A model generated the notes under the pieces. The model saw only the letters and a program-made list of their open reading frames with translations, did no database searches and was not told the DNA's origin. This document shows, in pieces, positions 2,418 through 15,645 of a DNA stretch of 64,000 nt; positions within the stretch are counted from its first letter, which is position 1; every line of letters begins with the position of its first letter. Source of the DNA: Dehalococcoidia bacterium. GTDB lineage: Bacteria > Chloroflexota > Dehalococcoidia > Lucifugimonadales > Australimonadaceae. Both the position numbers and the translations under genes were made by a program. Where the stretch lies: assembly GCA_965242755.1 (NCBI GenBank), contig OZ251500.1:950379-1014378 (forward strand), given 5' to 3'.

Positions 2418-2685
2418 ATGACGCCGTCGCCGACCAACCCCGTCCAAAGCCTTCCCGCCCCAACGCTCAACTTCCCCACGAGCGCGCTCTACTTGGGCGA
2501 CAACCTGGACTTCATGCGGGGGATGAACTCCGAGACCGTCGGCCTTATCGCCACCGACCCGCCTTTCAACAAGGGCGTCAAGGCGTTCAAGGCCAAAGAC
2601 GGCACGGCGGCGGACGGCCAATCCTTCACCGACAAGTGGAACTGGCAGAAGGACGTGCATCCGCAGTGGATCAAGGACATCCATG
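2418..2685 (+). pseudogene. N-terminal fragment of a beta-class DNA methyltransferase (motif IV DPPF), out of frame with the body
   Basis: LYLGDNLDFMRGM..VGLIATDPPFNKG..FTDKWNWQ matches the N-termini of the methyltransferases at 35153, 36851 and 37037. The frame then turns into Arg-rich nonsense. Confidence 0.7.
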
Positions 2686-3963
2686 GAGAATTGGCCGGCG
2701 GTCGGCGCCGTGATAGAGGCCGCCAAGCTGGCTCAGGGCTACGACACCGCAGCCTACCTGTGCTGGCTAGGCGTTCGGCTTATGGAGATGCACCGCATCC
2801 TCCGCAACGACGGGGCAATCTACGTCCACCTCGACCAGACGGCGGTGGCTTGGGTCAAGACGCTGATGGACGCCATTTTCGGGCGCGACAACTCCCGCAA
2901 CGAAATCGTGTGGCGCCGAACTCACAGCAAGAACGCCGTGGCCACGCGCTTCGGCACCAACCACGACACCATCCTCGCCTACTCCAAAGGCAAGTGGGCG
3001 TTCAACAAGAAGCGGGCGGTGCGCCCGTTCGAAAAGGACGAGGGGCAGGCCGGCTACAAGTTGGACAAGAAGACCGGGCGCTACTTCGCGCTGTCGCCAA
3101 TCTACGCGGACGGCCCTCGGAACGGCGACAGCGGGCAGCCCGCGACGTTCAGAGGCAAGGTCTACGAGCCCCCCGCCAACAGGCACTGGCGCGTTCCCGG
3201 CGGCAGGAAGAGCGGCGAGACGACATCGGCGGGTTGGGCCCGTTTGGACGCTGAAGGGCGTATGTACCTTGCGGAAGGCGGGAAGTTCCCGCAGTACATC
3301 CGCTATCGCGACGAAATGAACGGCGTTGACTTGGACGACGTCTGGACGGACATCCCAATACCCAGCGAACGCGAACGGACGGGGTGGAGCACGCAGAAGC
3401 CGCTCTCGCTCTATGAGCGCATCGTGCTCGCGTCGTCGAAGCCGGGAGACGTGGTGTTCGATCCGTTCGCGGGTTGCTCCACCACGCTCGTGGCGGCGGA
3501 GAAACACGGACGCCTCTGGGTGGGCTGCGACCGCGACCCCATCGCCCAGAGCATCGTCCGGCAGCGCCTGAGCGACAGCCGCCAACTCGCGAACCCGGCG
3601 AGCGTGCAAGTGCTCCACGATCCGCCTGTCCGTTCGGACGAAGTGACGGAGGAAACGCCCGACCTCGTCCTTAAGCCGGTAAAGCCGAAGCAGCGAAGGA
3701 TGCCGCGTTCCGAATTGCGCGATGCTCTCGTTCTGCGGGACGGCCTGCTCTGCCAGGGGTGCGGATGGACGCCGCCTCGCAGCAACTATCTCGTAAACGA
3801 CCATCGGCATCCTCACTCGGACGGCGGAGTCGACGACATCGTCAATCGCGTGCTCCTATGCCATCCGTGCAACGAAACCAAATCCGACACGCTCACGCTG
3901 AAGGGGCTCAGGCAATTCAACAAGCGCCACGGCCTCATGCTTGGGAAGGTGGACGGAGCCTAG
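2683..3963 (+). CDS. DNA methyltransferase body (motif I DPFAGCSTT, TQKP) fused to a C-terminal HNH nuclease
   Basis: AIYVHLD, NEIVWRR, STQKPLSLYERIV, VVFDPFAGCSTT. C-terminus CQGCGW..NDHRHPHSDGG..LLCHPCNETK is an HNH motif. Lacks its own motif IV, which lies in the 2418 fragment. Confidence 0.8.
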   Translation: MENWPAVGAVIEAAKLAQGYDTAAYLCWLGVRLMEMHRILRNDGAIYVHLDQTAVAWVKTLMDAIFGRDNSRNEIVWRRTHSKNAVATRFGTNHDTILAYSKGKWAFNKKRAVRPFEKDEGQAGYKLDKKTGRYFALSPIYADGPRNGDSGQPATFRGKVYEPPANRHWRVPGGRKSGETTSAGWARLDAEGRMYLAEGGKFPQYIRYRDEMNGVDLDDVWTDIPIPSERERTGWSTQKPLSLYERIVLASSKPGDVVFDPFAGCSTTLVAAEKHGRLWVGCDRDPIAQSIVRQRLSDSRQLANPASVQVLHDPPVRSDEVTEETPDLVLKPVKPKQRRMPRSELRDALVLRDGLLCQGCGWTPPRSNYLVNDHRHPHSDGGVDDIVNRVLLCHPCNETKSDTLTLKGLRQFNKRHGLMLGKVDGA

Positions 3964-4444: not shown

Positions 4445-4495
4445 GGGGGCATAACTCCCTGGGCTCCCAGTAGGTTCCCGCCTACGCGGCGCGGC
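4445..4495. repeat. Degenerate mosaic repeat (gcataactcc..ccagtaggttcccgcctacgcgg)
   Basis: Matches the D+A module junction seen at 48250-48300. Confidence 0.6.
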
Positions 4496-4624
4496 GTTGC
4501 GCCCCCTACCCGCCTGCACGCCCCTACCCCACCCCACCCCGCCTTGCCGCGCGGCGCGCGATTCGCGTAGGATTGCGCCCAACGGCCGCGCGGAACGCGG
4601 CGCTGCGGCAAAGGAGAATTGCGT

Positions 4625-9318: not shown

Positions 9319-9693
9319 ATGATACATAACGCTCTCTACTGCCCGAATTGCCTCGTCCAGCAGCCTGGGACTTCCAGCGACCACGTGGTCAAAGAGTATG
9401 TCTGCTGCCGCAAGTGCTACAAATCCTTCCAGTGGGGAGATTACCTGACAGCTCCGTTCCCACAGGCAGATTCCTACGGGAAACTCATGGACGAAAGCAT
9501 CCAGCCCTTCATTGCCGCAGCCAAGATTCCCCCTGTGTGGAGCTGGAAGTACCTCACCACTGCGTGGTGGCTCTGGCGTACTTCCGAGCCGATGCGGGCG
9601 CGTGGCAAGACAATGACAGACGCAGAATTCAAGAGGTGGGTAGACCGAGCCATGAGGCAACCCGGCCGTCTTCCCTTCGATGAGGAGTTCTAG
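9319..9693 (+). CDS. Hypothetical zinc-ribbon-like protein
   Basis: CPNC..17..CCRKC cysteine pairs at the N-terminus. Trp-rich. Visibly lower GC than its neighbours. Stop lies 2 nt before the next ATG. Confidence 0.5.
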   Translation: MIHNALYCPNCLVQQPGTSSDHVVKEYVCCRKCYKSFQWGDYLTAPFPQADSYGKLMDESIQPFIAAAKIPPVWSWKYLTTAWWLWRTSEPMRARGKTMTDAEFKRWVDRAMRQPGRLPFDEEF

Positions 9694-9695
9694 CC

Positions 9696-10484
9696 ATGTC
9701 CTTACCGCTACCGGTGCAGAAGTTCGCTAAACGGCACGGATTCCGCCGTCCGGACGATGCCGTTCGCCATGTTGCGGACTCCCTCGTCGCCCGGTCCGGG
9801 CAATCGCAACCCCGCTTCGCGCTCCAGCCCTTGCTTGAACTCGCGCCCGTTTCCCTAGACCCCCTGATCCGCGTGCAAGACATGGCTTACGCGGGAAGCC
9901 TGACCAAAGACGGCGATCTCTACCGGATAGCGGTCAACGCCCAGCACAACAGGGGGCGGCAGCGCTTCTCGGTTGCCCACGAACTCGGTCACGCCTTCTT
10001 CATCCCCTTCTCCGACGAAAGCCGCTACCGTATTCCCGGGACGGCGCACGACAGCCGGATAGAAGAGCGCATGTGCAACATCTTCGCCGCCAACGTCCTG
10101 ATGCCCGAAGAGCGGTTCTCCCAAGACCTCGAAGAGAAGGGCGTCAACGCGGCGTCTGTCATTGACTTGGCGGGGGCTTACGAGGTGTCCGTAGAGACGG
10201 CAGCCCTAAGAGTAACCGAGGTGCGCCCCAAGACGGCGGTAGTGGGATTGCTATCCCCGCCTGACGACGATGGACGCTCTCACGAAGTGCATATCCTCGC
10301 TCCGCGCCTGCCCCGTAGCCGCCCGGTCGTGTTGAAATCTCTGCTAGGCAAACCTTTCCTCGCAGACGGGGAGCTTGGGTGCATCGCGGATATTTTCTGG
10401 TCAAACGGCGACAGGTCAAAGGACGTGCGATGCCGTCCGCTAGGAGGCCGGTGGCTATTCGCCGCGACCGTCCGTCCTGCCTGA
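9696..10484 (+). CDS. ImmA/IrrE-family (DUF955) zinc metallopeptidase
   Basis: SVAHELGHAFF (HExxH) followed by CNIFAANVLMPEE, typical of ImmA/IrrE. Confidence 0.75.
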   Translation: MSLPLPVQKFAKRHGFRRPDDAVRHVADSLVARSGQSQPRFALQPLLELAPVSLDPLIRVQDMAYAGSLTKDGDLYRIAVNAQHNRGRQRFSVAHELGHAFFIPFSDESRYRIPGTAHDSRIEERMCNIFAANVLMPEERFSQDLEEKGVNAASVIDLAGAYEVSVETAALRVTEVRPKTAVVGLLSPPDDDGRSHEVHILAPRLPRSRPVVLKSLLGKPFLADGELGCIADIFWSNGDRSKDVRCRPLGGRWLFAATVRPA

Positions 10485-10496
10485 GGAGTCCCACGC

Positions 10497-10727
10497 CCTG
10501 TCATTCCCGCGTAGGCGGGAATCCAGTCGGCGCGATAGCGCCACGACGGGGCGCAACGCGCCCCGTCCCCAAGCCATCCCGGAGCCCCGTCATTCCCGCG
10601 AAAGCGGGAACCTACTGGGGCTGCCGCCCTCCCCGCGCAAGCGCGAACCCCAACTGGCGCAAGCGCCGACCCCGCCCTCTCCCGCTGGGCGGGAGAGGGC
10701 AGCCGCGAAGCGGCGGGTGAGGGTTGC
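10497..10727. repeat. Mosaic repeat cluster (modules B, A, E)
   Basis: gtcattcccgcgtaggcgggaatccagtcggcgcg, ccccgtcattcccgcgaaagcgggaacctactgggg, ccctctcccgctgggcgggagagggcagccgcgaagcggcgggtgagggttg. Confidence 0.9.
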
Positions 10728-11344
10728 CGCAAAATCGGACAACCGCCCCTTGCGCGCTCGCGCATGCCTCGTATACCCTGCCCCTCCGATCAGCGCAGAC
10801 GACGGAGAAACGCTTGGAAGACGCCTACGGCGAGGGCTACCAACGCGCGCGGACAGAAGCGCTCGCCCGCAACCCCACCTGCCAATTCTGCGGACGCTTC
10901 CCCGCGACCGACGCCCACCACTGGGCGTTCCATAAGTATCCGCCCGACGCGGAGATCGGCCCCGACGACCTGACGGCCCTGTGCCGTCACTGCCACGAAA
11001 TAGCCACCACGGTGCGCCGCCACTACCGCGACAGAGGCGGCAAACCCCACCAGATACCCCAAGCGTTGGAGGAGGCCCTACGGCAATGCGATACCAAGTC
11101 ACCATCAGGGGCGTTAGCCCCCTCATCACGCACAACGGAGCGGCCGGACTCGACACCCGCTCCCCTGCCAACGTCGAGAAGGCGGAAATCGCCCGCAAGA
11201 AAGGCTCCAACCGAACCGCAACCGACGACGAGCGCATCAAGGAACTCGAATGCCAAACCTCGCTTTGGCTCGACGCGCGCGACGCGGCTACGATCCCGGA
11301 AGGCGCGATCCGAGCCTGCATCGAAACCGGAGCGCGAAAGTTGA
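10724..11344 (+). CDS. Small HNH-motif protein; both ends uncertain
   Basis: CQFCGRFPATDAHHWAF..LTALCRHCHEIA is an HNH-like Cys/His pattern. The TTG start lies inside a repeat. The last ~85 codons overlap the next gene out of frame and look non-coding. Confidence 0.45.
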   Translation: MPQNRTTAPCALAHASYTLPLRSAQTTEKRLEDAYGEGYQRARTEALARNPTCQFCGRFPATDAHHWAFHKYPPDAEIGPDDLTALCRHCHEIATTVRRHYRDRGGKPHQIPQALEEALRQCDTKSPSGALAPSSRTTERPDSTPAPLPTSRRRKSPARKAPTEPQPTTSASRNSNAKPRFGSTRATRLRSRKARSEPASKPERES

Positions 11345-11682
11345 AGCAGGGGCCCCAAGTCCGCGAGGGCTTGGTGGTCGAAGGCGTCCAATCGTTCGAC
11401 TACGACCGCGAGGAGCTCGGCTCGACGGTCGAAGAGTTGGGCAAGCGCGCCCAGTTCACGGTGGGCGTCGTCGTCCAGCGCAACCGCGTCCTGCGGACGC
11501 GCGCCAAGTTCGACGAGTGGTCGTGCGCGTTCACCCTCGACTGCGACGACGAACTCGTCGACAAAGACCAGTTGGAGGCGTGGCTCGACATCGCCGGACG
11601 CAGAATCGGCCTCGGCGACTGGAGGCCGGAGAAGTCCGGCACCTACGGAAGGTTCGAAGCCGAAGTGCAGCCTCTCGGTTAG
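11086..11682 (+). CDS. Uncharacterised 198-aa protein with a RAMP-like glycine-rich C-terminus
   Basis: GGAGGAGG RBS. MRYQVTIRGVSPLITHNG.., ..ATIPEGAIRACIETGAR.., C-terminal GRRIGLGDWRPEKSGTYGRFE. No family assigned with confidence. Confidence 0.7.
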   Translation: MRYQVTIRGVSPLITHNGAAGLDTRSPANVEKAEIARKKGSNRTATDDERIKELECQTSLWLDARDAATIPEGAIRACIETGARKLKQGPQVREGLVVEGVQSFDYDREELGSTVEELGKRAQFTVGVVVQRNRVLRTRAKFDEWSCAFTLDCDDELVDKDQLEAWLDIAGRRIGLGDWRPEKSGTYGRFEAEVQPLG

Positions 11683-11991
11683 GTTCAGGGCCTGGCGTGG
11701 CTAGGCAAGGCTTGGTAGGGCTTGGCGCGGCTCGGTTGGGCCTGGCAAGGCTAGGCATGGCCCGGCACGGCGAGGCAGGGTTTTATCGTGGCAGGGCCCG
11801 GCATGGCACGGCGCGGTACGGCATGGCACGGCCCGGTATGGCATGGCAGAGCGAGGCATGGCAAGGCGAGGCATGGTTCGGCCCGGCGGGGCTCGGCTAG
11901 GCAGTGCGTGGTATGGCGTGGCGAGGCATGGTTCGGCCCGGCGGGGCTGGGTAAGGTATGGCAGGGCTTGGCGTGGCGAGGCAGGGAACTC

Positions 11992-12020
11992 TTGACGAGG
12001 CCAGGCAGACAACGACATAG
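11992..12020 (+). promoter_or_regulatory. Promoter-like spacer 1 in the array (TTGACG-17-ACATAG)
   Basis: Conserved spacer aggcagggaactcTTGACG..gcagacaacgACATAGgtcgcggcgcggc. The pentamer block resumes 6 nt after the -10-like hexamer. Confidence 0.35.
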
Positions 12021-12106
12021 GTCGCGGCGCGGCGGGGCATGGCTCGGCGCGGCATGGCTGGGTGCGGCGTGGCTAGGCTAGGCTCGGCAAGGCGAGGCAG
12101 GGAACT

Positions 12107-12135
12107 TTGACGCGGTTATGCAGACAACGATACAA
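12107..12135 (+). promoter_or_regulatory. Promoter-like spacer 2 in the array (TTGACG-17-ATACAA)
   Basis: aggcagggaacttTTGACGcggttatgcagacaacgATACAAgtcagggcgcggc. Same geometry as spacer 1. Confidence 0.35.
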
Positions 12136-12242
12136 GTCAGGGCGCGGCGCGGCAGGGTATGGCGTGGCATGGCATGGCTAGGCCCGGCATGGTTGGGCAA
12201 GGCAAGGCAGGGAACTTTTATGACAAAGAAGGCAGACGCGAC

Positions 12243-12271
12243 ATGACGCGGTTGGCGGAGCAACGATATAA
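12243..12271 (+). promoter_or_regulatory. Promoter-like spacer 3 in the array (ATGACG-17-ATATAA)
   Basis: Spacer 3 carries a ~25-nt insertion but keeps (A/T)TGACG-17-ATATAA followed by the next pentamer block. Confidence 0.35.
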
Positions 12272-12356
12272 ATCGAGGCGCGGCAGGGCATGGCCCGGTG
12301 CGGCACGGCATGGCAAGGCAGGGCGGTGCATGGCATGGCATGGCGCGGCCTGGATA

Positions 12357-12384
12357 GGCCCTCCCCAGGCAACTGGGGAGGGCC
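12357..12384 (+). other. 10-bp GC stem-loop closing the array (GGCCCTCCCC-aggcaact-GGGGAGGGCC)
   Basis: Perfect inverted repeat 12357-12366 / 12375-12384. No T-tract follows, so it is not a canonical intrinsic terminator. Confidence 0.6.
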
Positions 12385-12465
12385 GCTCTACCCAGCGGAC
12401 GCTCCGCGGTTCGATGGCTTGCCCGCCCCTTGCGCGAGGGGCTAGGCTCGCGGACGCGCGTCGCA

Positions 12466-12679
12466 GTCCGTCGGCGGAGCGCCGATGAACGCGCCAAGAG
12501 ACGGGGCGCAACGCGCCCCGTCCCCAAGCCATCCCGGGGCCCCGTCATTCCCGCGAAAGCGGGAACCTACTGGGGCGCCACGCCCTGCCCGCGAAAGCGC
12601 GAACCCACCCGGCGCGCAAGCGCCGCCCCCGCCCTCTCCTTCTGGGAGAGGGCAGCCGCGTAGCGGCGGGTGAGGGTCG
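12466..12679. repeat. Mosaic repeat cluster (modules B-tail, A, E)
   Basis: ..acggggcgcaacgcgccccgtccccaagccatcccgg.., ccccgtcattcccgcgaaagcgggaacctactgggg, ccctctccttctgggagagggcagccgcgtagcggcgggtgagggt. Confidence 0.9.
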
Positions 12680-12806
12680 CCCCATGTCGCAACTGCGACA
12701 CATGCCCCTTGCGCGCCCCCAACCACGCCCCTACGATGGACCCATCACGCCCCAAATCCCAACGAGGGCGCGCAACCGACGCGAACGGAGAGGAACGCAA
12801 GGCCAA

Positions 12807-12895
12807 TGTCTCAAATTGTCTCAAATTGTCTCAAAATGTCTCATTTTGTCTCATTCCTGTCTCAAAACGTCTCATTAGCGTCTCAAACCGTCTCG
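12807..12895 (+). repeat. Iteron-like array: 9 copies of GTCTCA (last copy GTCTCG) at 10-11 bp spacing
   Basis: Copies start at 12808, 12818, 12828, 12838, 12848, 12859, 12869, 12880 and 12890. The first three units are TGTCTCAAAT. AT-rich relative to the surroundings. Confidence 0.9.
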
Positions 12896-12943
12896 CGCCG
12901 AAACGCCCAAAAACTAGGCCAACACGGAAAAAGGAGGCCGCCA

Positions 12944-13381
12944 ATGACCCAAAATGAGACATACCCCGGGGTCGACGACGACCGCGCCGCCCTCGCCCGC
13001 GGCGAGGCGCGCGAACTCACCGACCGCCAACTCCTCGCACTCCCCTTCATCGCCGCATCCTCCACCCAAACCGAAGCCGCCGAAGCCGCCGAGATCAGCC
13101 GCGCCACCCTCGCACGCTGGCGCCAAAACCCCAGATTCAAAGACGAACTCCGCCGCATCCGCGAAGACGCCGCCAAACTCGCCCACGCCGAACTCGACGG
13201 CCTCGCCCTCAAAAGCGTCTCCGCCCTCGCCAACCTCATGGACGACCCCAACCCCCGCGTCAGAGCCCAAGCCATCCGAACAGCCCTCGACATATCCCTC
13301 AAAGTCCAAGAGCAAACCCGCATCCGCCGCAACCTCCGCCAACTCGAAAACGCCTTCAACCACCTCAAAAACCAAAAGTAG
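12944..13381 (+). CDS. Phage/plasmid-like HTH protein
   Basis: AAGGAGG RBS. TQTEAAEAAEISRATLARWRQNPRF is an HTH-like segment. Lies 49 nt downstream of the iteron array. Confidence 0.6.
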   Translation: MTQNETYPGVDDDRAALARGEARELTDRQLLALPFIAASSTQTEAAEAAEISRATLARWRQNPRFKDELRRIREDAAKLAHAELDGLALKSVSALANLMDDPNPRVRAQAIRTALDISLKVQEQTRIRRNLRQLENAFNHLKNQK

Positions 13382-13416
13382 CCCCAGCAAGGAGCCCAAC
13401 CACACGGACCGCCCCG

Positions 13417-13655
13417 CCCGCGCAAACGCGAATCCAGCCGGCGCGAAAGCACCGACCCCGCCCTCTCCCTCTGGAGACCTTTGCATAACCTACCGTCATT
13501 CCCGCGTAGGCGGGAATCCAGGCGGCGCGCAGCGCCGCTCCTCTCCCACGTAAGCGCCCCGTCATTCCCGCGAAAGCGGGAACCTACTGGGGCAGAGGAG
13601 TTATGCAAAGGCCTCCTCTGGGAGAGGGCAGCCGCGAAGCGGCGGGTGAGGGTTG
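13417..13655. repeat. Mosaic repeat cluster (modules E, D, B, A, D-inverted, E)
   Basis: ccctctccctctggagacctttgcataacctaccgtcattcccgcgtaggcgggaatcc ... ccccgtcattcccgcgaaagcgggaacctactgggg ... gagttatgcaaaggcctcctctgggagagggcagccgcgaagcggcgggtgagggttg. Confidence 0.9.
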
Positions 13656-13712
13656 AGCCCTTCTCTCAATGCCCAGTAGCTAATTGCCGACAGATTACCC
13701 TGCGCGTAAGTA

Positions 13713-13763: not shown

Positions 13764-14042
13764 ATGCCAAGAGAGCCGAGGCCCATGCAGTCCGTGATTG
13801 ACCAGATTGACGCGGCGGTCAAGGAACTCCGCCGAGGGACGACGAAAAAGAAGGGGGCAAGCCCCGAGGTCTTGCGGAAGCAACTGCTCAGAGTCCAGTC
13901 CGCAGCCGCAGCCGGAATACGGACGGTGGACGCGGATGACAACCGCAAGAGCCAACTGAATCCGAACAACGACGCCTTCTGGCAAGCGCGCGGGTTCCCC
14001 AAGCGCCCCGACGACTGGAAGGCCAGGATCACCGTGAAATAG
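13764..14042 (+). CDS. Small protein with a C-terminal DNRKSQLNPNNDAFWQARGFPKRPDDWKARI motif
   Basis: AGGAGG RBS. 92 aa. Shares a ~32-aa C-terminal motif with the next gene. Confidence 0.6.
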   Translation: MPREPRPMQSVIDQIDAAVKELRRGTTKKKGASPEVLRKQLLRVQSAAAAGIRTVDADDNRKSQLNPNNDAFWQARGFPKRPDDWKARITVK

Positions 14043-14058
14043 ACCAAGGAGACCGACG

Positions 14059-14250
14059 ATGCCGCTGATCATCCACCCGCTCCCTGAGGCGCTAGGGCCC
14101 AGCAACGACGCCAAGCGCGACCGCGACAACCGCAAGAACCAACTGAATCCGAACAACGACGCCTACTGGCGAGCGCAAGGGTTCCCCAAGCGCCCCAACG
14201 ACTGGAAGGCCAGAATCGCCGCCGAGAAGCAGCGGCGAACTTCGAGGTAG
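14059..14250 (+). CDS. Small protein with the DNRKNQLNPNNDAYWRAQGFPKRPNDWKARI motif (tandem paralog)
   Basis: AAGGAG RBS. 63 aa. Motif is nearly identical to that of 13764-14042. Confidence 0.6.
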   Translation: MPLIIHPLPEALGPSNDAKRDRDNRKNQLNPNNDAYWRAQGFPKRPNDWKARIAAEKQRRTSR

Positions 14251-14299
14251 CCAAACCGCTCGGCCCCTCCATCCGCATCGTTGCGGCGCCCCTATGCCG

Positions 14300-14470
14300 G
14301 CCTGCCCGCGTAGGCGGGAATCCAGTCGGCGCGCAAGCGCCACGAGACGGGCGCCCCGTCCCCGGCTGGGTTTTGCGCCTCCGCGGGTGAGGGTTGCCCA
14401 GCAGGTTCCCGCTTGCGCGGTCAGGGCGTGGCCCCGGGGATGGCTTGGCGCGCGCAAGCGCCGATTGATG
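14300..14470. repeat. Mosaic repeat cluster
   Basis: cccgcgtaggcgggaatccagtcggcgcgcaagcgccacgagacggg.., gggtgagggttgcc, ggttcccgcttgcgcgg. Confidence 0.8.
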
Positions 14471-14513: not shown

Positions 14514-15032
14514 ATGTCGACCACGGCGAAACCCTTCGCGCCTCCGTTCGACGAGGGGCTGGACCTCGACCCGCCGCGAGAGACGCATGCGACGCATAGC
14601 AGGCGGCTGCGCGCCCGATCCGCCCGCTCGCTGAAAGACGGCGAACGAGTCGCAGGCTCCGAAGAGACATGGGGCGCGGCGGTGCATGCGGTCAAGGCGA
14701 TTGCCCGCAAACGCGGATGGCCGCATCACGAGCATCGCGCCTACGGCGTCATCGCCAACCGCATCGGCGCCCTCGCAGAGAACGAGCGCATCGGGGAACT
14801 GTTCGCCGCCATCGAGAGCCTCCACCGCAACTTCTCCGACGACGAGTCGGAATCGGAACTACGGATCGGGCAGGAGCGTCTGGCACGGCTGCTCGCGTTC
14901 CTCAAAGAGGCGGACAAAACCATCCCGCCGAACGCCGAGCCGCCGACCGACCCCGACTACCGCAAGCGCGCCGCCGCCTACCTGCGGAAGCATTACCGCC
15001 GCGCCCCAGCCGCATCCGCCCGCAAGCGGTAG
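14514..15032 (+). CDS. PaREP1/HEPN-like helical protein, paralog 2
   Basis: GERVAGSEETWGAAVHAVKAIARKRGWPHHEH (R-x5-H) and SLHRNFSDD. GAGGAG RBS. Confidence 0.6.
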   Translation: MSTTAKPFAPPFDEGLDLDPPRETHATHSRRLRARSARSLKDGERVAGSEETWGAAVHAVKAIARKRGWPHHEHRAYGVIANRIGALAENERIGELFAAIESLHRNFSDDESESELRIGQERLARLLAFLKEADKTIPPNAEPPTDPDYRKRAAAYLRKHYRRAPAASARKR

Positions 15033-15039
15033 CCCCCGG

Positions 15040-15258
15040 TCCCGTCATTCCCGCGCAGCCGCGAACCCAGCCGGCGCGATAGCGCCACGACGGGGCGTCC
15101 CGCGCCCCGTCCCCAAGCCATCCCCCGGCTACCTCGCCCTGACCGCGAAAGCGGGAACCTATTGGGCCTTGCCGCCCTCCCTCGAAGCGACGAACCCAGT
15201 GGCGCGAAAGCGCCAACCCCCCTCTCCTTCTGGAGACCTTTGCATAACCCACCCGCCC
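15040..15258. repeat. Mosaic repeat cluster
   Basis: gtcattcccgcgcagccgcgaacccagccggcgcgatagcgccacgacgggg.., ccgcgaaagcgggaacctattggg, cctctccttctggagacctttgcataaccc. Confidence 0.85.
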
Positions 15259-15260
15259 CT

Positions 15261-15402
15261 GCTCGCGTTCCTCAAAGAGGCGGACAAAGCCGTTCCGCCG
15301 AACGCCGAGCCGCCGACCGACCCCGACTATCGCAAGCGCGCCGCCGCCTACCTGCGGAAGCATTACCGTCGCGCCCCAGCCGCGTCCGCCCGCGAGCGGT
15401 AG
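15261..15402 (+). pseudogene. Duplicated 3' fragment of the PaREP1-like gene (last 46 codons and stop)
   Basis: 142 nt align with 14891-15032 at 7 mismatches. Encodes LLAFLKEADKAVPPNAEPPTDPDYRKRAAAYLRKHYRRAPAASARER-stop with no 5' part. Confidence 0.85.
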
Positions 15403-15454
15403 CCCTCCCCTGCCGCCAGCCGCTCGGACCCCGGCCTTGCCGAGACCTCGCCCG

Positions 15455-15645
15455 CCCTGCCCGCATAGGCGGGAATGACGCGGCGCTTGGGGTAGAAGAG
15501 GGGCAGCGCCTTACGCGGCGGGGGGGTTCGCGGCTACGCGGGGAGGGCGTGGCCTGGCGCCTACGCGGGCAGGGCGGCGCGGCATGGCAAGGCGGCGTTG
15601 ATTGGTTCCCTCGCCTTACCAGGGAGAGGGTTAGGGTGAATGTGG
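15455..15645. repeat. Mosaic repeat cluster
   Basis: cccgcataggcgggaatgacgcgg, several ctacgcggg units, cagggagagggttagggtga. Confidence 0.75.

What the first reader, a model, noticed from the sequence alone, without database searches (positions are those of the whole stretch)
11977..12290. Conserved promoter-like spacers make the array look like tandem transcription units
Three spacers between pentamer blocks share the frame aggcagggaac-T(2-4)-(T/A)TGACG-N17-A(C/T)A(T/C)A(G/A)-5..10 nt-GGCGCGGC. This gives TTGACG-17-ACATAG (11992-12020), TTGACG-17-ATACAA (12107-12135) and ATGACG-17-ATATAA (12243-12271). All point into the following pentamer block. A truncated version (agggttttatcgt, 11777-11789) separates blocks 0 and 1. 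The spacers are the only AT-containing patches in the array. Spacer 3 carries a ~25-nt internal duplication of the TGAC(A/G) segment. If functional, each unit would produce a short RNA made almost entirely of NNGGC repeats.
Basis: partly seen in the sequence, partly recalled or inferred. Interest (0 to 1): 0.62.

Follow-up and report, generated by a model that had tools for sequence, protein, structure and literature searches.

The report
Guide-RNA array junctions, probably not promoters
The three "promoter-like spacers" are enlarged junctions between guide RNAs in an array belonging to a recently described phage-type RNA-guided system (VIPR), and comparison with related arrays argues they are linkers in one long transcript, not a promoter for each unit.

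Summary
Three 78-85% identical spacers share TGACG-N17-AYAYAR, a pattern found nowhere else in the window (3 matches, 0.05 expected).

The pentamer array (11689-12361, + strand) is a VIPR vrRNA array. It starts 6 nt after the stop of a gene whose profile matches the solved SUSP1 Vipr protein (E 2e-19, Cas7-like fold, GGY-binding residues kept). Its 107 units are GG-Y-N-N with variable NN.

The promoter reading is not supported:
- Four of the seven guide units have a 0-6 nt junction upstream, or follow the vipr stop directly.
- In about 80 homologous loci the array follows vipr directly (median gap 17 nt).
- The commonest junction there is a 9-nt motif (GGAAATCRA).
- S1-S3 are that motif split by an insert.
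- In orthologous arrays the hexamer spacing is 11-12, 14-15, 17-18 or 35 nt, or TGACG is missing.
- No -10 candidate has the -7 T.
- Long junctions family-wide score like shuffles.

The most likely mechanism is co-transcription with vap-vipr, with the junctions delimiting Vipr-coated guides. Weak internal promoters at S2/S3 remain possible (about 0.2). This is a new member of a known kind.

The parts
10814..11344 (+). Probable vap accessory gene. It is a small CxxC...HH...CxxCH (HNH-like) protein. The start is inferred as TTG 10814, with GGAG at 10804-10807. The ORF runs 259 nt into vipr in another frame.
   Evidence: A conserved upstream ORF is present in 63 of 81 loci. Pfam HNH hits are below threshold but recur in three divergent members (E 0.0018-0.11). 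The start was read from the sequence.
11086..11682 (+). vipr gene: a 198-aa RAMP protein that coats the GGYNN repeats.
   Evidence: The profile hits PDB 36pp 'SUSP1 Vipr protein' at E 2.3e-19. The pairwise alignment keeps H16, R139 and D178-W179-R180, equivalent to SUSP1 H17, R138, D177-W178-R179. The AF2 model has pLDDT 89 and its best fold matches are Cas7/Csm3. It matches phrog_4652 at E 2e-32.
11689..11783 (+). vrRNA unit U1: 19 GGYNN units, ending in the handle GGCGAGGCAGGGTTT.
11784..11789 (+). Short junction TATCGT. It is the canonical short junction type and shifts the pentamer register.
11790..11879 (+). vrRNA unit U2: 18 units, handle GGCGAGGCATGGTTC. It is joined in phase to U3.
11880..11934 (+). 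vrRNA unit U3: 11 units, handle GGCGAGGCATGGTTC. It is joined in phase to U4.
   Evidence: TRF reports a 55-nt period here.
11935..11989 (+). vrRNA unit U4: 11 units, handle GGCGAGGCAGGGAAC.
11990..12025 (+). Spacer S1 insert (TCTTGACG...CATAGGTCGC), lying between the two halves of the junction motif (GGAAC ... GTCGC). It contains TTGACG 11992-11997 and ACATAG 12015-12020.
   Evidence: RNA fold z-score -0.14.
12026..12105 (+). vrRNA unit U5: 16 units. This guide is replaced by a different one in L082, L083 and L139.
12106..12140 (+). Spacer S2 insert. It contains TTGACG 12107-12112 and ATACAA 12130-12135 (or TACAAG at 18-nt spacing).
   Evidence: RNA fold z-score +1.55.
12141..12215 (+). vrRNA unit U6: 15 units.
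12216..12276 (+). Spacer S3 insert, made of two tandem copies of the TGAC...GGCAGAC..CGA module. It contains ATGACG 12243-12248 and ATATAA 12266-12271 (or TATAAA at 18-nt spacing).
   Evidence: RNA fold z-score -1.24.
12277..12361 (+). vrRNA unit U7: about 15-17 units. It is the last guide and runs into the terminal hairpin.
12357..12384 (+). Terminal GC-rich hairpin GGCCCTCCCCAG-GCAA-CTGGGGAGGGCC. It marks the end of the array and could be a 3' cap or a terminator-like element.
   Evidence: Fold energy -39 kcal/mol, z-score -4.15, with 0 of 200 shuffles as good. Most homologous arrays end in a comparable hairpin.
10487..10731 (.). REP-like repeat cluster flanking the module on the left.
   Evidence: Direct-repeat families D2-D4, D6 and D8. 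A 77-nt stretch is 99% identical to 12500-12576.
12500..12684 (.). REP-like repeat cluster flanking the module on the right.

Best explanation
The region is the middle of a VIPR (Viral Interference Programmable Repeat) guide-RNA array. The locus is vap (HNH-like) - vipr - seven vrRNAs, all on the + strand.

Each vrRNA is a run of 11-19 GGYNN pentamers. By homology with the solved SUSP1 complex, one Vipr protomer binds each GGY. The variable NN dinucleotides read a double-stranded DNA target, skipping every third base.

Each unit but the last (U7) ends in a constant handle, GGCRRGGCAKGG(A/T)(A/T)Y. In this family, consecutive units are normally separated by a 9-nt junction, GGA(A/C)(A/T)TC(G/A)N, which breaks the 5-nt register.

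S1-S3 are that junction (GGAAC ... RTCRN) split by a 35-61 nt AT-richer, unstructured insert. I infer the following steps:
1. The whole array is transcribed together with vap-vipr from upstream.
2. Vipr filaments assemble on each in-register tract.
3. The junctions, short or long, stop filament growth.
4. The junctions are then trimmed, or kept as a floppy 3' tail.

On this reading the promoter resemblance of S1-S3 is a lineage-specific by-product, or at most a dispensable supplementary promoter.

Shown here: the identity of the protein, the repeat code, the unit boundaries, the junction homology, and the lack of conserved promoter geometry. Inferred: co-transcription, processing, and what the inserts do.
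For: **VIPR identity.**
- The profile of the adjacent gene hits the SUSP1 Vipr chain 36pp_D at E 2.3e-19.
- The residues that bind GGY are conserved.
- The fold is Cas7-like.
- Of 107 units, G is at position 1 in 104, G at position 2 in 107, and C/T at position 3 in 103. NN entropy is 1.81 and 1.96 bits.
- The published definition is 9-16 YNNGG repeats plus a constant 3' part, beside vipr.

**Seven units.** The handle GGCRRGGCAKGGWWY occurs 6 times, only in the array.

**Co-transcription.**
- The first tract starts 6 nt after the vipr stop in the window.
- In 71 of 81 loci a tract follows vipr, at a median gap of 17 nt; 64 have a gap of 40 nt or less.

**Junction homology.**
- There are 54 short junctions, with a mode of 9 nt and consensus GGAAATCRA.
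- S1-S3 begin with GGAAC and end with RTCRN.

**No dependence on a spacer.**
- U2-U4 have junctions of 6, 0 and 0 nt.
- The same guide (GGCGGGGCTCGGCTAGGCAG...) is preceded by an in-phase join in the window, 6-7 nt in L083 and L139, 12 nt in L001, and 30 nt in L085.

**Promoter geometry not conserved.** Searches show the variable spacings listed above.
- The most conserved stretch is CAACGAYAYARRTCGA next to the following tract, not the hexamers.
- No -10 candidate has both A2 and T6. Real-looking promoters in these genomes do: TTGCAA-17-TAGAAT and other TACAAT/TATAAT boxes, and TAGAAT upstream of lepA.
- Across 51 distinct long junctions the score is 6.33 against 5.73 for shuffles.

**Experimentally studied relative.** In the SUSP1-like phage wV8, a strong TTGACA-16-TATACT promoter lies only upstream of the first vrRNA, and none lies between units. 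In the published work, vrRNA1 and the swapped-in vrRNA2 and vrRNA3 worked when expressed from vector promoters.
Against: - S1-S3 carry a good -35 (TTGACG, TTGACG, ATGACG) at 17-18 nt from an A/T hexamer. That hexamer ends 4-6 nt before the first GGC, which is a sensible geometry for starting transcription in the first pentamer.
- S2 and S3 and their closest orthologues (L083c, L139b, L139c) score 9 of 12 against the consensus.
- The inserts are 78-85% identical while the guides between them have diverged completely, so something constrains them.
- They have no stable RNA fold (z-scores -0.14, +1.55, -1.24). A structured-tail role, as in SUSP1, is therefore not available to explain that constraint.
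- Every spacer of this type is followed by a GGCGCGGC-like start (9 of 11 exact), which could be a conserved initially transcribed sequence.
- Neither VIPR paper reports how the vrRNAs of an array are made. Their sRNA-seq erased 5'-end chemistry with CIP and PNK.
- There are no transcript data for this organism.
Confidence: 0.68

Rival explanations
1. S1-S3, or at least S2 and S3, are genuine internal sigma-70-type promoters. Each starts transcription in the first pentamer of the next guide, supplementing read-through from vipr. This would be a promoter-interspersed array architecture.
For: - TTGACG or ATGACG lies 17-18 nt from TACAAG, CATAGG or TATAAA, scoring 8-9 of 12.
- The pattern is unique to the array.
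- These are the AT-richest patches.
- They have no RNA structure of their own.
- The geometry is kept in the S2 orthologue L139b and the S3 orthologues L083c, L139c, L082b and L138.
- A constant GGCGCGGC follows each spacer.
Against: - No candidate -10 has the -7 T, and the consensus scan finds nothing.
- The S1 orthologues have a 6-nt deletion between the hexamers, the L083 orthologue of S2 has a 3-nt deletion, L001 has an 18-nt insertion, and L085b, L135 and L137 have no TGACG.
- The stretch between the hexamers (GCAGACAACGA) is better conserved than the -10 hexamer.
- Four of the seven units in the same array lack such a spacer.
- Family-wide, junctions are 9 nt.
- Long junctions are not promoter-enriched.
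Confidence: 0.2
2. The spacers are structured 3' tails of the preceding vrRNA. They would be equivalent to the roughly 40-nt pseudoknot tail that caps the SUSP1 filament, conserved for RNA folding and Vipr capping.
For: - Published vrRNAs are a repeat tract plus an invariant 3' tail of about 40 nt. The tail forms a pseudoknot at the filament's 3' end.
- S1 and S2 are 40-41 nt, counting the GGAAC, and directly follow the constant handle.
- In another member of the family (L058), the spacers are 14-bp hairpins. Four of the pairs show compensatory changes, and the fold z-score is -5.7.
- A 4-bp mini-hairpin, CGAY-NNNN-RTCG, is possible in about 10 of the roughly 17 distinct spacers of this type, with one C-G to U-A swap.
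Against: - Folding energies of S1-S3 are no better than shuffles (z-scores -0.14, +1.55, -1.24).
- Orthologues carry indels of 3-18 nt with no compensating pattern.
- Most units in the family have no tail beyond 9 nt.
- The mini-hairpin is marginal and is broken in S2, L082a, L082b and L138.
Confidence: 0.07
3. The inserts have no function of their own. They would be neutral filler that spread with unit duplication or recombination between arrays, perhaps serving only as homology for exchanging guide cassettes.
For: - The junctions preceding one and the same guide differ freely between strains.
- Inserts gain and lose 3-25 nt.
- The guide between S1 and S2 is entirely different in the window and in L082, L083 and L139, although the flanks are orthologous and Vipr is 100% identical in L082 and L083 (89% in L139). 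This is what recombination at the constant junctions would produce.
Against: - Paralogue identity of 78-85% and near-identity of the S3 orthologues suggest either some constraint or very recent spread.
- TGACG and CAACGA are kept in most copies.
Confidence: 0.05

Closest known systems
VIPR systems (Vipr RAMP protein plus vrRNA arrays). Sources: bioRxiv 10.64898/2026.04.26.720920 and 10.64898/2026.04.26.720927, and PDB 36pp.
   Same: - The Vipr homologue keeps the GGY-binding residues.
- The guides are GGY/NN pentamers of about 11-19 units, with hypervariable NN.
- The guides lie on the same strand directly beside vipr.
- Each guide ends in a constant 3' part.
- The locus is minimal: vipr plus one accessory gene.
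- The setting is a mobile or phage-remnant context.
   Different: - Vipr is only about 29% identical to the SUSP1 protein.
- The accessory gene is HNH-like and lies upstream, overlapping vipr. In SUSP1 type II it is a downstream DNA-binding vap1.
- There is no pseudoknot tail.
- Junctions are 0-9 nt, or are unstructured 35-61-nt inserts.
- The host is an uncultured Dehalococcoidia-like chromosome.
- The VIPR type could not be assigned here, because the paper's tables are not available.
Other VIPR array architectures named in the paper: staggered arrays with abutting vrRNAs, and hammerhead-ribozyme-interspersed arrays.
   Same: Many guides sit in one array with minimal or no separate promoters. 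The paper's wording 'processed vrRNAs' implies maturation from a precursor. The 0-9-nt junctions here resemble the staggered type.
   Different: No ribozyme of any Rfam family is found in the array, even at E up to 10. The S1-S3 inserts match none of the described junction types.
CRISPR arrays with a leader promoter, processed into crRNAs by RAMP proteins.
   Same: - Variable guides alternate with constant elements.
- Single-operon transcription followed by processing is the likely route.
- The partner is a RAMP protein.
- Guides turn over between strains at constant flanks.
   Different: - The guide information is spread over NN dinucleotides in 5-nt repeats rather than held in a contiguous spacer.
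- There are no 24-48-nt direct repeats.
- There is no cas1 or cas2.
- The target is read with a 1-nt skip.
Bacterial sigma-70 promoters (TTGACA-17-TATAAT).
   Same: A good -35-like hexamer lies 17-18 nt from an A/T-rich hexamer, positioned 4-6 nt before the next unit.
   Different: - The -7 T is absent from every copy and orthologue.
- The spacing is not conserved in orthologues.
- The inter-hexamer sequence is better conserved than the -10.

Membership tests
VIPR system | A Vipr protein: a minimal RAMP with an RRM core, G-loop and thumb, homologous to SUSP1 Vipr. | tested here: met
   - hmmsearch E 2.3e-19 to 36pp_D and phmmer E 3e-14 over residues 5-195.
- H16, R139 and D178-W179-R180 align with SUSP1 H17, R138 and D177-W178-R179.
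- The AF2 model (pLDDT 89) matches Cas7/Csm3 chains.
VIPR system | vrRNA genes made of tandem GGY/NN (YNNGG) pentamers, with conserved GGY and hypervariable NN, about 9-16 repeats per RNA. | tested here: met
   - There are 107 units. G is at position 1 in 97%, G at position 2 in 100%, and Y at position 3 in 96%. NN entropy is 1.8-2.0 bits.
- The seven units hold 11-19 repeats, delimited by a constant handle.
- The mode in homologous loci is 13-17 repeats.
VIPR system | vrRNAs lie in the intergenic DNA flanking vipr, in its orientation. | tested here: met
   The array starts 6 nt after the vipr stop on the + strand. The same arrangement holds in 71 of 81 homologous loci.
VIPR system | An invariant, structured 3' tail after the repeat tract (a pseudoknot in the SUSP1 clade). 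| tested here: inconclusive
   - A constant handle, GGCRRGGCAKGGWWY, ends six of the seven units.
- The array ends in a strong hairpin.
- The internal spacers S1-S3 do not fold better than shuffles.
VIPR system | An accessory vap gene next to vipr. | tested here: inconclusive
   A conserved upstream ORF with a CxxC..HH..CxxCH motif is present in 63 of 81 loci. The Pfam HNH hits fall below the gathering score (E 0.0018-0.11).
VIPR system | vrRNAs are expressed, bind Vipr, and match DNA targets under the 1-nt-skip rule. | tested here: inconclusive
   - Expression and binding cannot be tested with these tools.
- Target searches found no exact 10-unit match in viral contigs.
- 8-unit seeds did not extend beyond chance.
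- Nothing in the window or in 140 loci exceeded the shuffled-guide controls.
   TTGACG, TTGACG and ATGACG, matching 5, 5 and 4 of 6 positions.
   The best registers are CATAGG, TACAAG and TATAAA. None has T6, and nor does any orthologue. The consensus scan returns 0 sites.
   The spacing is 17-18 nt in the window. In orthologues and paralogues it is 11-12, 14-15 or 35 nt, or TGACG is absent.
   No transcript data are available. The published sRNA-seq protocol removes the chemistry that would distinguish 5' ends.
Ribozyme-interspersed VIPR array | A hammerhead or other self-cleaving ribozyme between vrRNAs. | tested here: not met
   Rfam gives no hit at the gathering threshold over the window. 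No ribozyme appears at E up to 10 in 11600-12480.

The most novel reading that the evidence does not exclude
The S-type junctions are a functional module not yet described for VIPR arrays. One version is that they are internal promoters, making U5-U7 independently transcribed guides (a promoter-interspersed architecture). The other is that they are constant recombination handles at which whole guides are swapped. Supporting the second version, the guide between S1 and S2 is entirely different in arrays whose Vipr protein is identical (L082, L083) or 89% identical (L139). That bears on how a system without Cas1 renews its guides.
Probability: 0.2. Interest if true: 0.55.

Novelty: new member of a known kind. 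Interest (0 to 1): 0.3.

Why it matters
VIPR was described only in 2026, and how arrays of vrRNAs are transcribed, cut apart and renewed is not yet reported. This locus and its roughly 90 relatives give a natural series of junction types within one protein family: 0 nt, 9 nt, hairpin-bearing, and AT-rich inserts.

The series shows that guides do not need a dedicated upstream element. It also identifies a 9-nt junction motif and a constant 3' handle as the likely unit delimiters.

For annotation, the result is that AT-rich patches in a pentamer array should be read as guide junctions, not as promoters. If the inserts did turn out to be promoters or exchange handles, that would add a new array architecture, but the present evidence is against the promoter version.

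Tried and rejected
**Ideas held before the protein was identified.** I considered a TRAP-like RNA wrapped on a ring protein, a G-quadruplex or R-loop replication origin, a packaging (pac) or centromere site, and a coding pentapeptide repeat. All were dropped once the adjacent protein matched the solved Vipr structure. The coding idea also fails because stops occur wherever NN = TA.

**Searches that found nothing useful.**
- Rfam: no family at the gathering threshold over the window, and no ribozyme at E up to 10 in the array.
- Sigma-70 scan: none in 10500-13500.
- RNA folding of S1-S3: not better than shuffles.
- Metagenome scan for the spacer frame (GGCAGGGAA..TGACG..TCNNGGCGCGGC): 48 hits, none flanked by pentamer tracts, so all are chance.
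- Target prediction with the published xNN rule: 0 exact 10-unit matches for U5 and U6 in viral contigs. The 8-unit seeds (8 and 28 loci) extend only to 21 of 32 and 24 of 30 positions, which is chance level. There is no self or cross target in the window plus 140 loci above shuffled-guide controls.
- VIPR type assignment: the paper's supplementary tables are not held.

**Other GG- or CC-periodic patches in the window** (15532-15591, 4485-4572) are G-rich REP-like sequence, not vrRNA tracts.

**Operon promoter upstream of vap.** TTGCGC-16-TATACC at 10750-10777 is weak, lies in REP-like sequence, and is not claimed.
Full report
**Observation**

Three patches interrupt a long run of GGYNN pentamers, and they align with each other. 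The frame TGACG-N17-AYAYAR occurs three times in the 64-kb window, all in the array on the + strand. Shuffles give 0.05 expected matches.

The three copies are paralogues, 78-85% identical. The NN positions of the guides between them are only 27-33% identical. The shared frame therefore shows descent from one module plus some constraint, not three independent promoters. The tool's sigma-70 scan reports no site in 10500-13500.

**What the array is**

The pentamer run spans 11689-12361 and begins 6 nt after the stop codon of a 198-aa ORF (11086-11682, + strand). Pfam, NCBIfam and PADLOC do not recognise this protein, and PHROGs places it in phrog_4652, of unknown function.

- A profile built from its homologues hits one solved structure, 36pp 'SUSP1 Vipr protein', at E 2.3e-19.
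- The pairwise alignment covers residues 5-195.
- An AlphaFold model (pLDDT 89) best matches Cas7/Csm3 backbone subunits.

Two 2026 preprints describe the family. VIPR systems pair a minimal RAMP protein, Vipr, with vrRNAs of 9-16 YNNGG repeats followed by a constant 3' tail. One Vipr protomer binds each repeat and sequesters the GGY. The NN dinucleotides pair with double-stranded DNA, skipping every third base. The outcome is repression, or in nuclease-associated types probably destruction, of competing phages.

The residues reported to hold GGY in SUSP1 (H17, R138, D177, W178, R179) align with H16, R139, D178, W179 and R180 here, all invariant in my alignment of 41 homologues.

The 107 pentamers of the array have G at position 1 in 104, G at position 2 in 107, and C or T at position 3 in 103. 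Positions 4 and 5 have near-maximal entropy. This is a VIPR array.

**Unit structure**

A constant handle, GGCRRGGCAKGG(A/T)(A/T)Y, occurs six times in the window, all in the array. It divides the array into seven guides:

| Unit | Coordinates | Pentamers |
|---|---|---|
| U1 | 11689-11783 | 19 |
| U2 | 11790-11879 | 18 |
| U3 | 11880-11934 | 11 |
| U4 | 11935-11989 | 11 |
| U5 | 12026-12105 | 16 |
| U6 | 12141-12215 | 15 |
| U7 | 12277-12361 | about 15-17 |

U7 runs into a strong terminal hairpin at 12357-12384 (z-score -4.15). The junctions between units are 6 nt (U1/U2), 0 nt (U2/U3 and U3/U4), and then S1, S2 and S3. So four of the seven guides have no promoter-like spacer upstream.

**Comparative evidence**

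A genome scan with the protein returned 80 loci from uncultured bacteria of many phyla: Dehalococcoidia, other Chloroflexota, Alphaproteobacteria, Binatia, Vicinamibacterales, Acidimicrobiia and Gammaproteobacteria. Look-ups of near-identical proteins added eleven more.

- Apart from vipr, only an upstream HNH-like ORF is conserved in the neighbourhood.
- In 71 of 81 loci a pentamer tract follows vipr on the same strand, at a median gap of 17 nt. In 64 loci the gap is 40 nt or less. This leaves no room for a separate promoter and implies co-transcription with vipr.
- Within arrays there are 54 short junctions, with a mode of 9 nt and consensus GGA(A/C)(A/T)TC(G/A)N.
- There are 46 longer junctions of very mixed content. 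Some carry GC hairpins (L058: 14 pairs, 4 with compensatory changes, z-score -5.7). Others are AT-rich.
- S1-S3 start with GGAAC and end with GTCGC, GTCAG or ATCGA. They are therefore the 9-nt junction split by an insert.

**Test of the promoter reading**

I compared orthologous arrays from strains whose Vipr is 89-100% identical.

| Spacer | Orthologue or relative | Change |
|---|---|---|
| S1 | L082, L083, L139 | 6-nt deletion between the hexamers (distance 11-12 nt) |
| S2 | L083 | 3-nt deletion (distance 14-15 nt) |
| S2 | L139 | geometry kept |
| S3 | L083, L139, L082, L138 | conserved |
| related spacer | L001 | 18-nt insertion (distance 35 nt) |
| related spacers | L085, L135, L137 | TGACG absent |

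- The best conserved stretch is CAACGAYAYARRTCGA, next to the following tract. The inter-hexamer segment GCAGACAACGA is better conserved than the putative -10.
- No -10 candidate in any copy has both A2 and T6. Promoter-like boxes elsewhere in these genomes do: TTGCAA-17-TAGAAT and TACAAT/TATAAT boxes after arrays, and TAGAAT before lepA.
- Over 51 distinct long junctions, the best sigma-70 score averages 6.33 of 12 against 5.73 for shuffles. Only S2 and S3 and their orthologues reach 9.
- One and the same guide is preceded by an in-phase join (window), 6-7 nt (L083, L139), 12 nt (L001) or 30 nt (L085). Guide production therefore does not depend on a particular upstream element.
- In wV8, a close relative of the experimentally studied SUSP1, a strong TTGACA-16-TATACT promoter sits only before the first vrRNA, and none lies between units.
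- The published constructs expressed vrRNAs from vector promoters, with vrRNA2 and vrRNA3 swapped into the vrRNA1 position.

**What remains in favour of promoters**

- The -35 is good, and the geometry relative to the next unit is sensible.
- The inserts are conserved while the guides diverge.
- The inserts have no RNA fold of their own (z-scores -0.14, +1.55, -1.24).
- Each insert is followed by a GGCGCGGC-like start (9 of 11 exact).
- Neither paper reports how array vrRNAs are made, and their sRNA-seq removed 5'-end chemistry.

I put weak internal promoter activity at about 0.2.

**Mechanism proposed**

The following steps are inferred:
1. vap-vipr-array is one transcript.
2. Vipr filaments grow along each in-register GGYNN tract.
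3. Any junction that breaks the register ends a filament.
4. The exposed linker is trimmed, or is left as an unstructured 3' extension.
5. The terminal hairpin protects or ends the transcript.

The NN code then reads targets as described for SUSP1. The HNH-like Vap suggests target cutting, as proposed for the nuclease-associated VIPR types.

I found no targets. There were no exact 10-unit matches in viral contigs. The 8-unit seeds extended only to chance level. Nothing in the window or in the fetched loci exceeded shuffled controls.

**Comparison and novelty**

The locus meets the defining features of VIPR that can be tested by sequence. It differs from the studied type II systems in four respects:
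- an upstream, overlapping HNH-like accessory gene;
- the absence of a pseudoknot tail;
- its range of junction types;
- its host.

The VIPR type could not be assigned because the paper's tables are not available. I file it as a new member of a known kind. The specific promoter claim is not supported.

The most novel reading left open is that the S-type junction is a functional module: either an internal promoter, or a constant handle for swapping guides. The guide between S1 and S2 has been replaced wholesale in arrays whose Vipr is identical (L082, L083) or 89% identical (L139).

**Verdict**

- Observation: confirmed.
- Interpretation: partly supported. The short repeat RNAs are real by homology; a promoter in each spacer is not supported.
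- Interest: 0.3.

Noticed in passing
window 12026-12105, compared with L083 3963-4032, L139 2938-3007 and L082 3920-3989: The guide between the orthologous spacers S1 and S2 differs completely between the window and three related arrays (Vipr 100% identical in L082 and L083, 89% in L139). The neighbouring guide U4 is shared by all three, and U6 by L083 and L139 (L082 lacks U6). This looks like replacement of a whole guide cassette at constant junctions, in a system with no known acquisition machinery.
   Followed up: partly
window 10814-11344 against 11086-11682: The conserved HNH-like upstream ORF (probable vap) stays open for about 250 nt into vipr in another frame. This holds in most of 63 loci, including low-GC ones, and the stop positions cluster at +235 to +259. 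It could be a real long overlap, a by-product of vipr conservation, or a frameshift fusion. This was not resolved.
   Followed up: partly
window 10487-10731 and 12500-12684; also 13410-13660, 14286-14440 and 15031-15260: Clusters of REP-like palindromic repeats (for example CCGTCATTCCCGCGAAAGCGGGAACC) flank the vap-vipr-array module, with a 77-nt stretch 99% identical on both sides. They recur between every small gene from 9.3 to 15.7 kb. They could mediate movement or rearrangement of the module.
   Followed up: partly
L082 compared with L083 (and the window): The identical 198-aa Vipr protein sits in two unrelated chromosomal contexts: next to nitrile hydratase genes in L082, and next to ribonucleotide reductase in L083 and the window. 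The module is therefore mobile or multi-copy.
   Followed up: no
loci L001-L080: Close relatives of this Vipr (57-97% identity), each with its own pentamer array, occur in MAGs of at least six phyla. Several organism names point to marine sponge symbionts (for example Candidatus Poriferisocius). One Vicinamibacterales isolate carries at least five copies with the same single guide (L068, L070, L077, L079, L080, and also L078).
   Followed up: partly
L058 6677-6720, 6801-6845, 6993-7036 and 7102-7146: In a gammaproteobacterial member of the family, the long junctions are 14-bp GC hairpins with compensatory changes, each followed by CTATAC(T/A)G or CTAAACGA. This is a different, clearly structured junction type.
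   Followed up: partly
window 12807-12894 and 12944-13381: About nine 10-11-bp iterons (TGTCTCAAAT and similar) lie directly upstream of a 145-aa HTH protein that matches PHROG small-terminase families (phrog_2538, E 1.5e-10). They could be an operator, origin or pac-like site of a degraded phage or satellite. The arrangement is not conserved next to vipr in other loci.
   Followed up: no
window 11880-11989: U3 and U4 are a 55-nt tandem pair. They share their first two NN dinucleotides (CC, GG) and their handles, but differ in the middle. They may be a recent duplication now diverging in the guide positions.
   Followed up: no
window 9319-10484: A 124-aa protein with a weak zinc-ribbon-like match (NMD3, E 0.0068) is followed by an ImmA/IrrE-type metalloprotease that matches the PADLOC capP model (E 1e-24). 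The pair lies just upstream of the VIPR module and may be a regulatory pair from a defence or prophage element.
   Followed up: no
window 13938-14034 / 14125-14221 and 14889-15035 / 15259-15405: There are two further pairs of long direct repeats, 97 nt at 92% identity and 147 nt at 95%, in the gene-poor stretch between the terminase-like gene and lepA.
   Followed up: no
window 2683-3963: One ORF fuses an N6/N4 DNA methylase domain to a C-terminal HNH nuclease domain.
   Followed up: no
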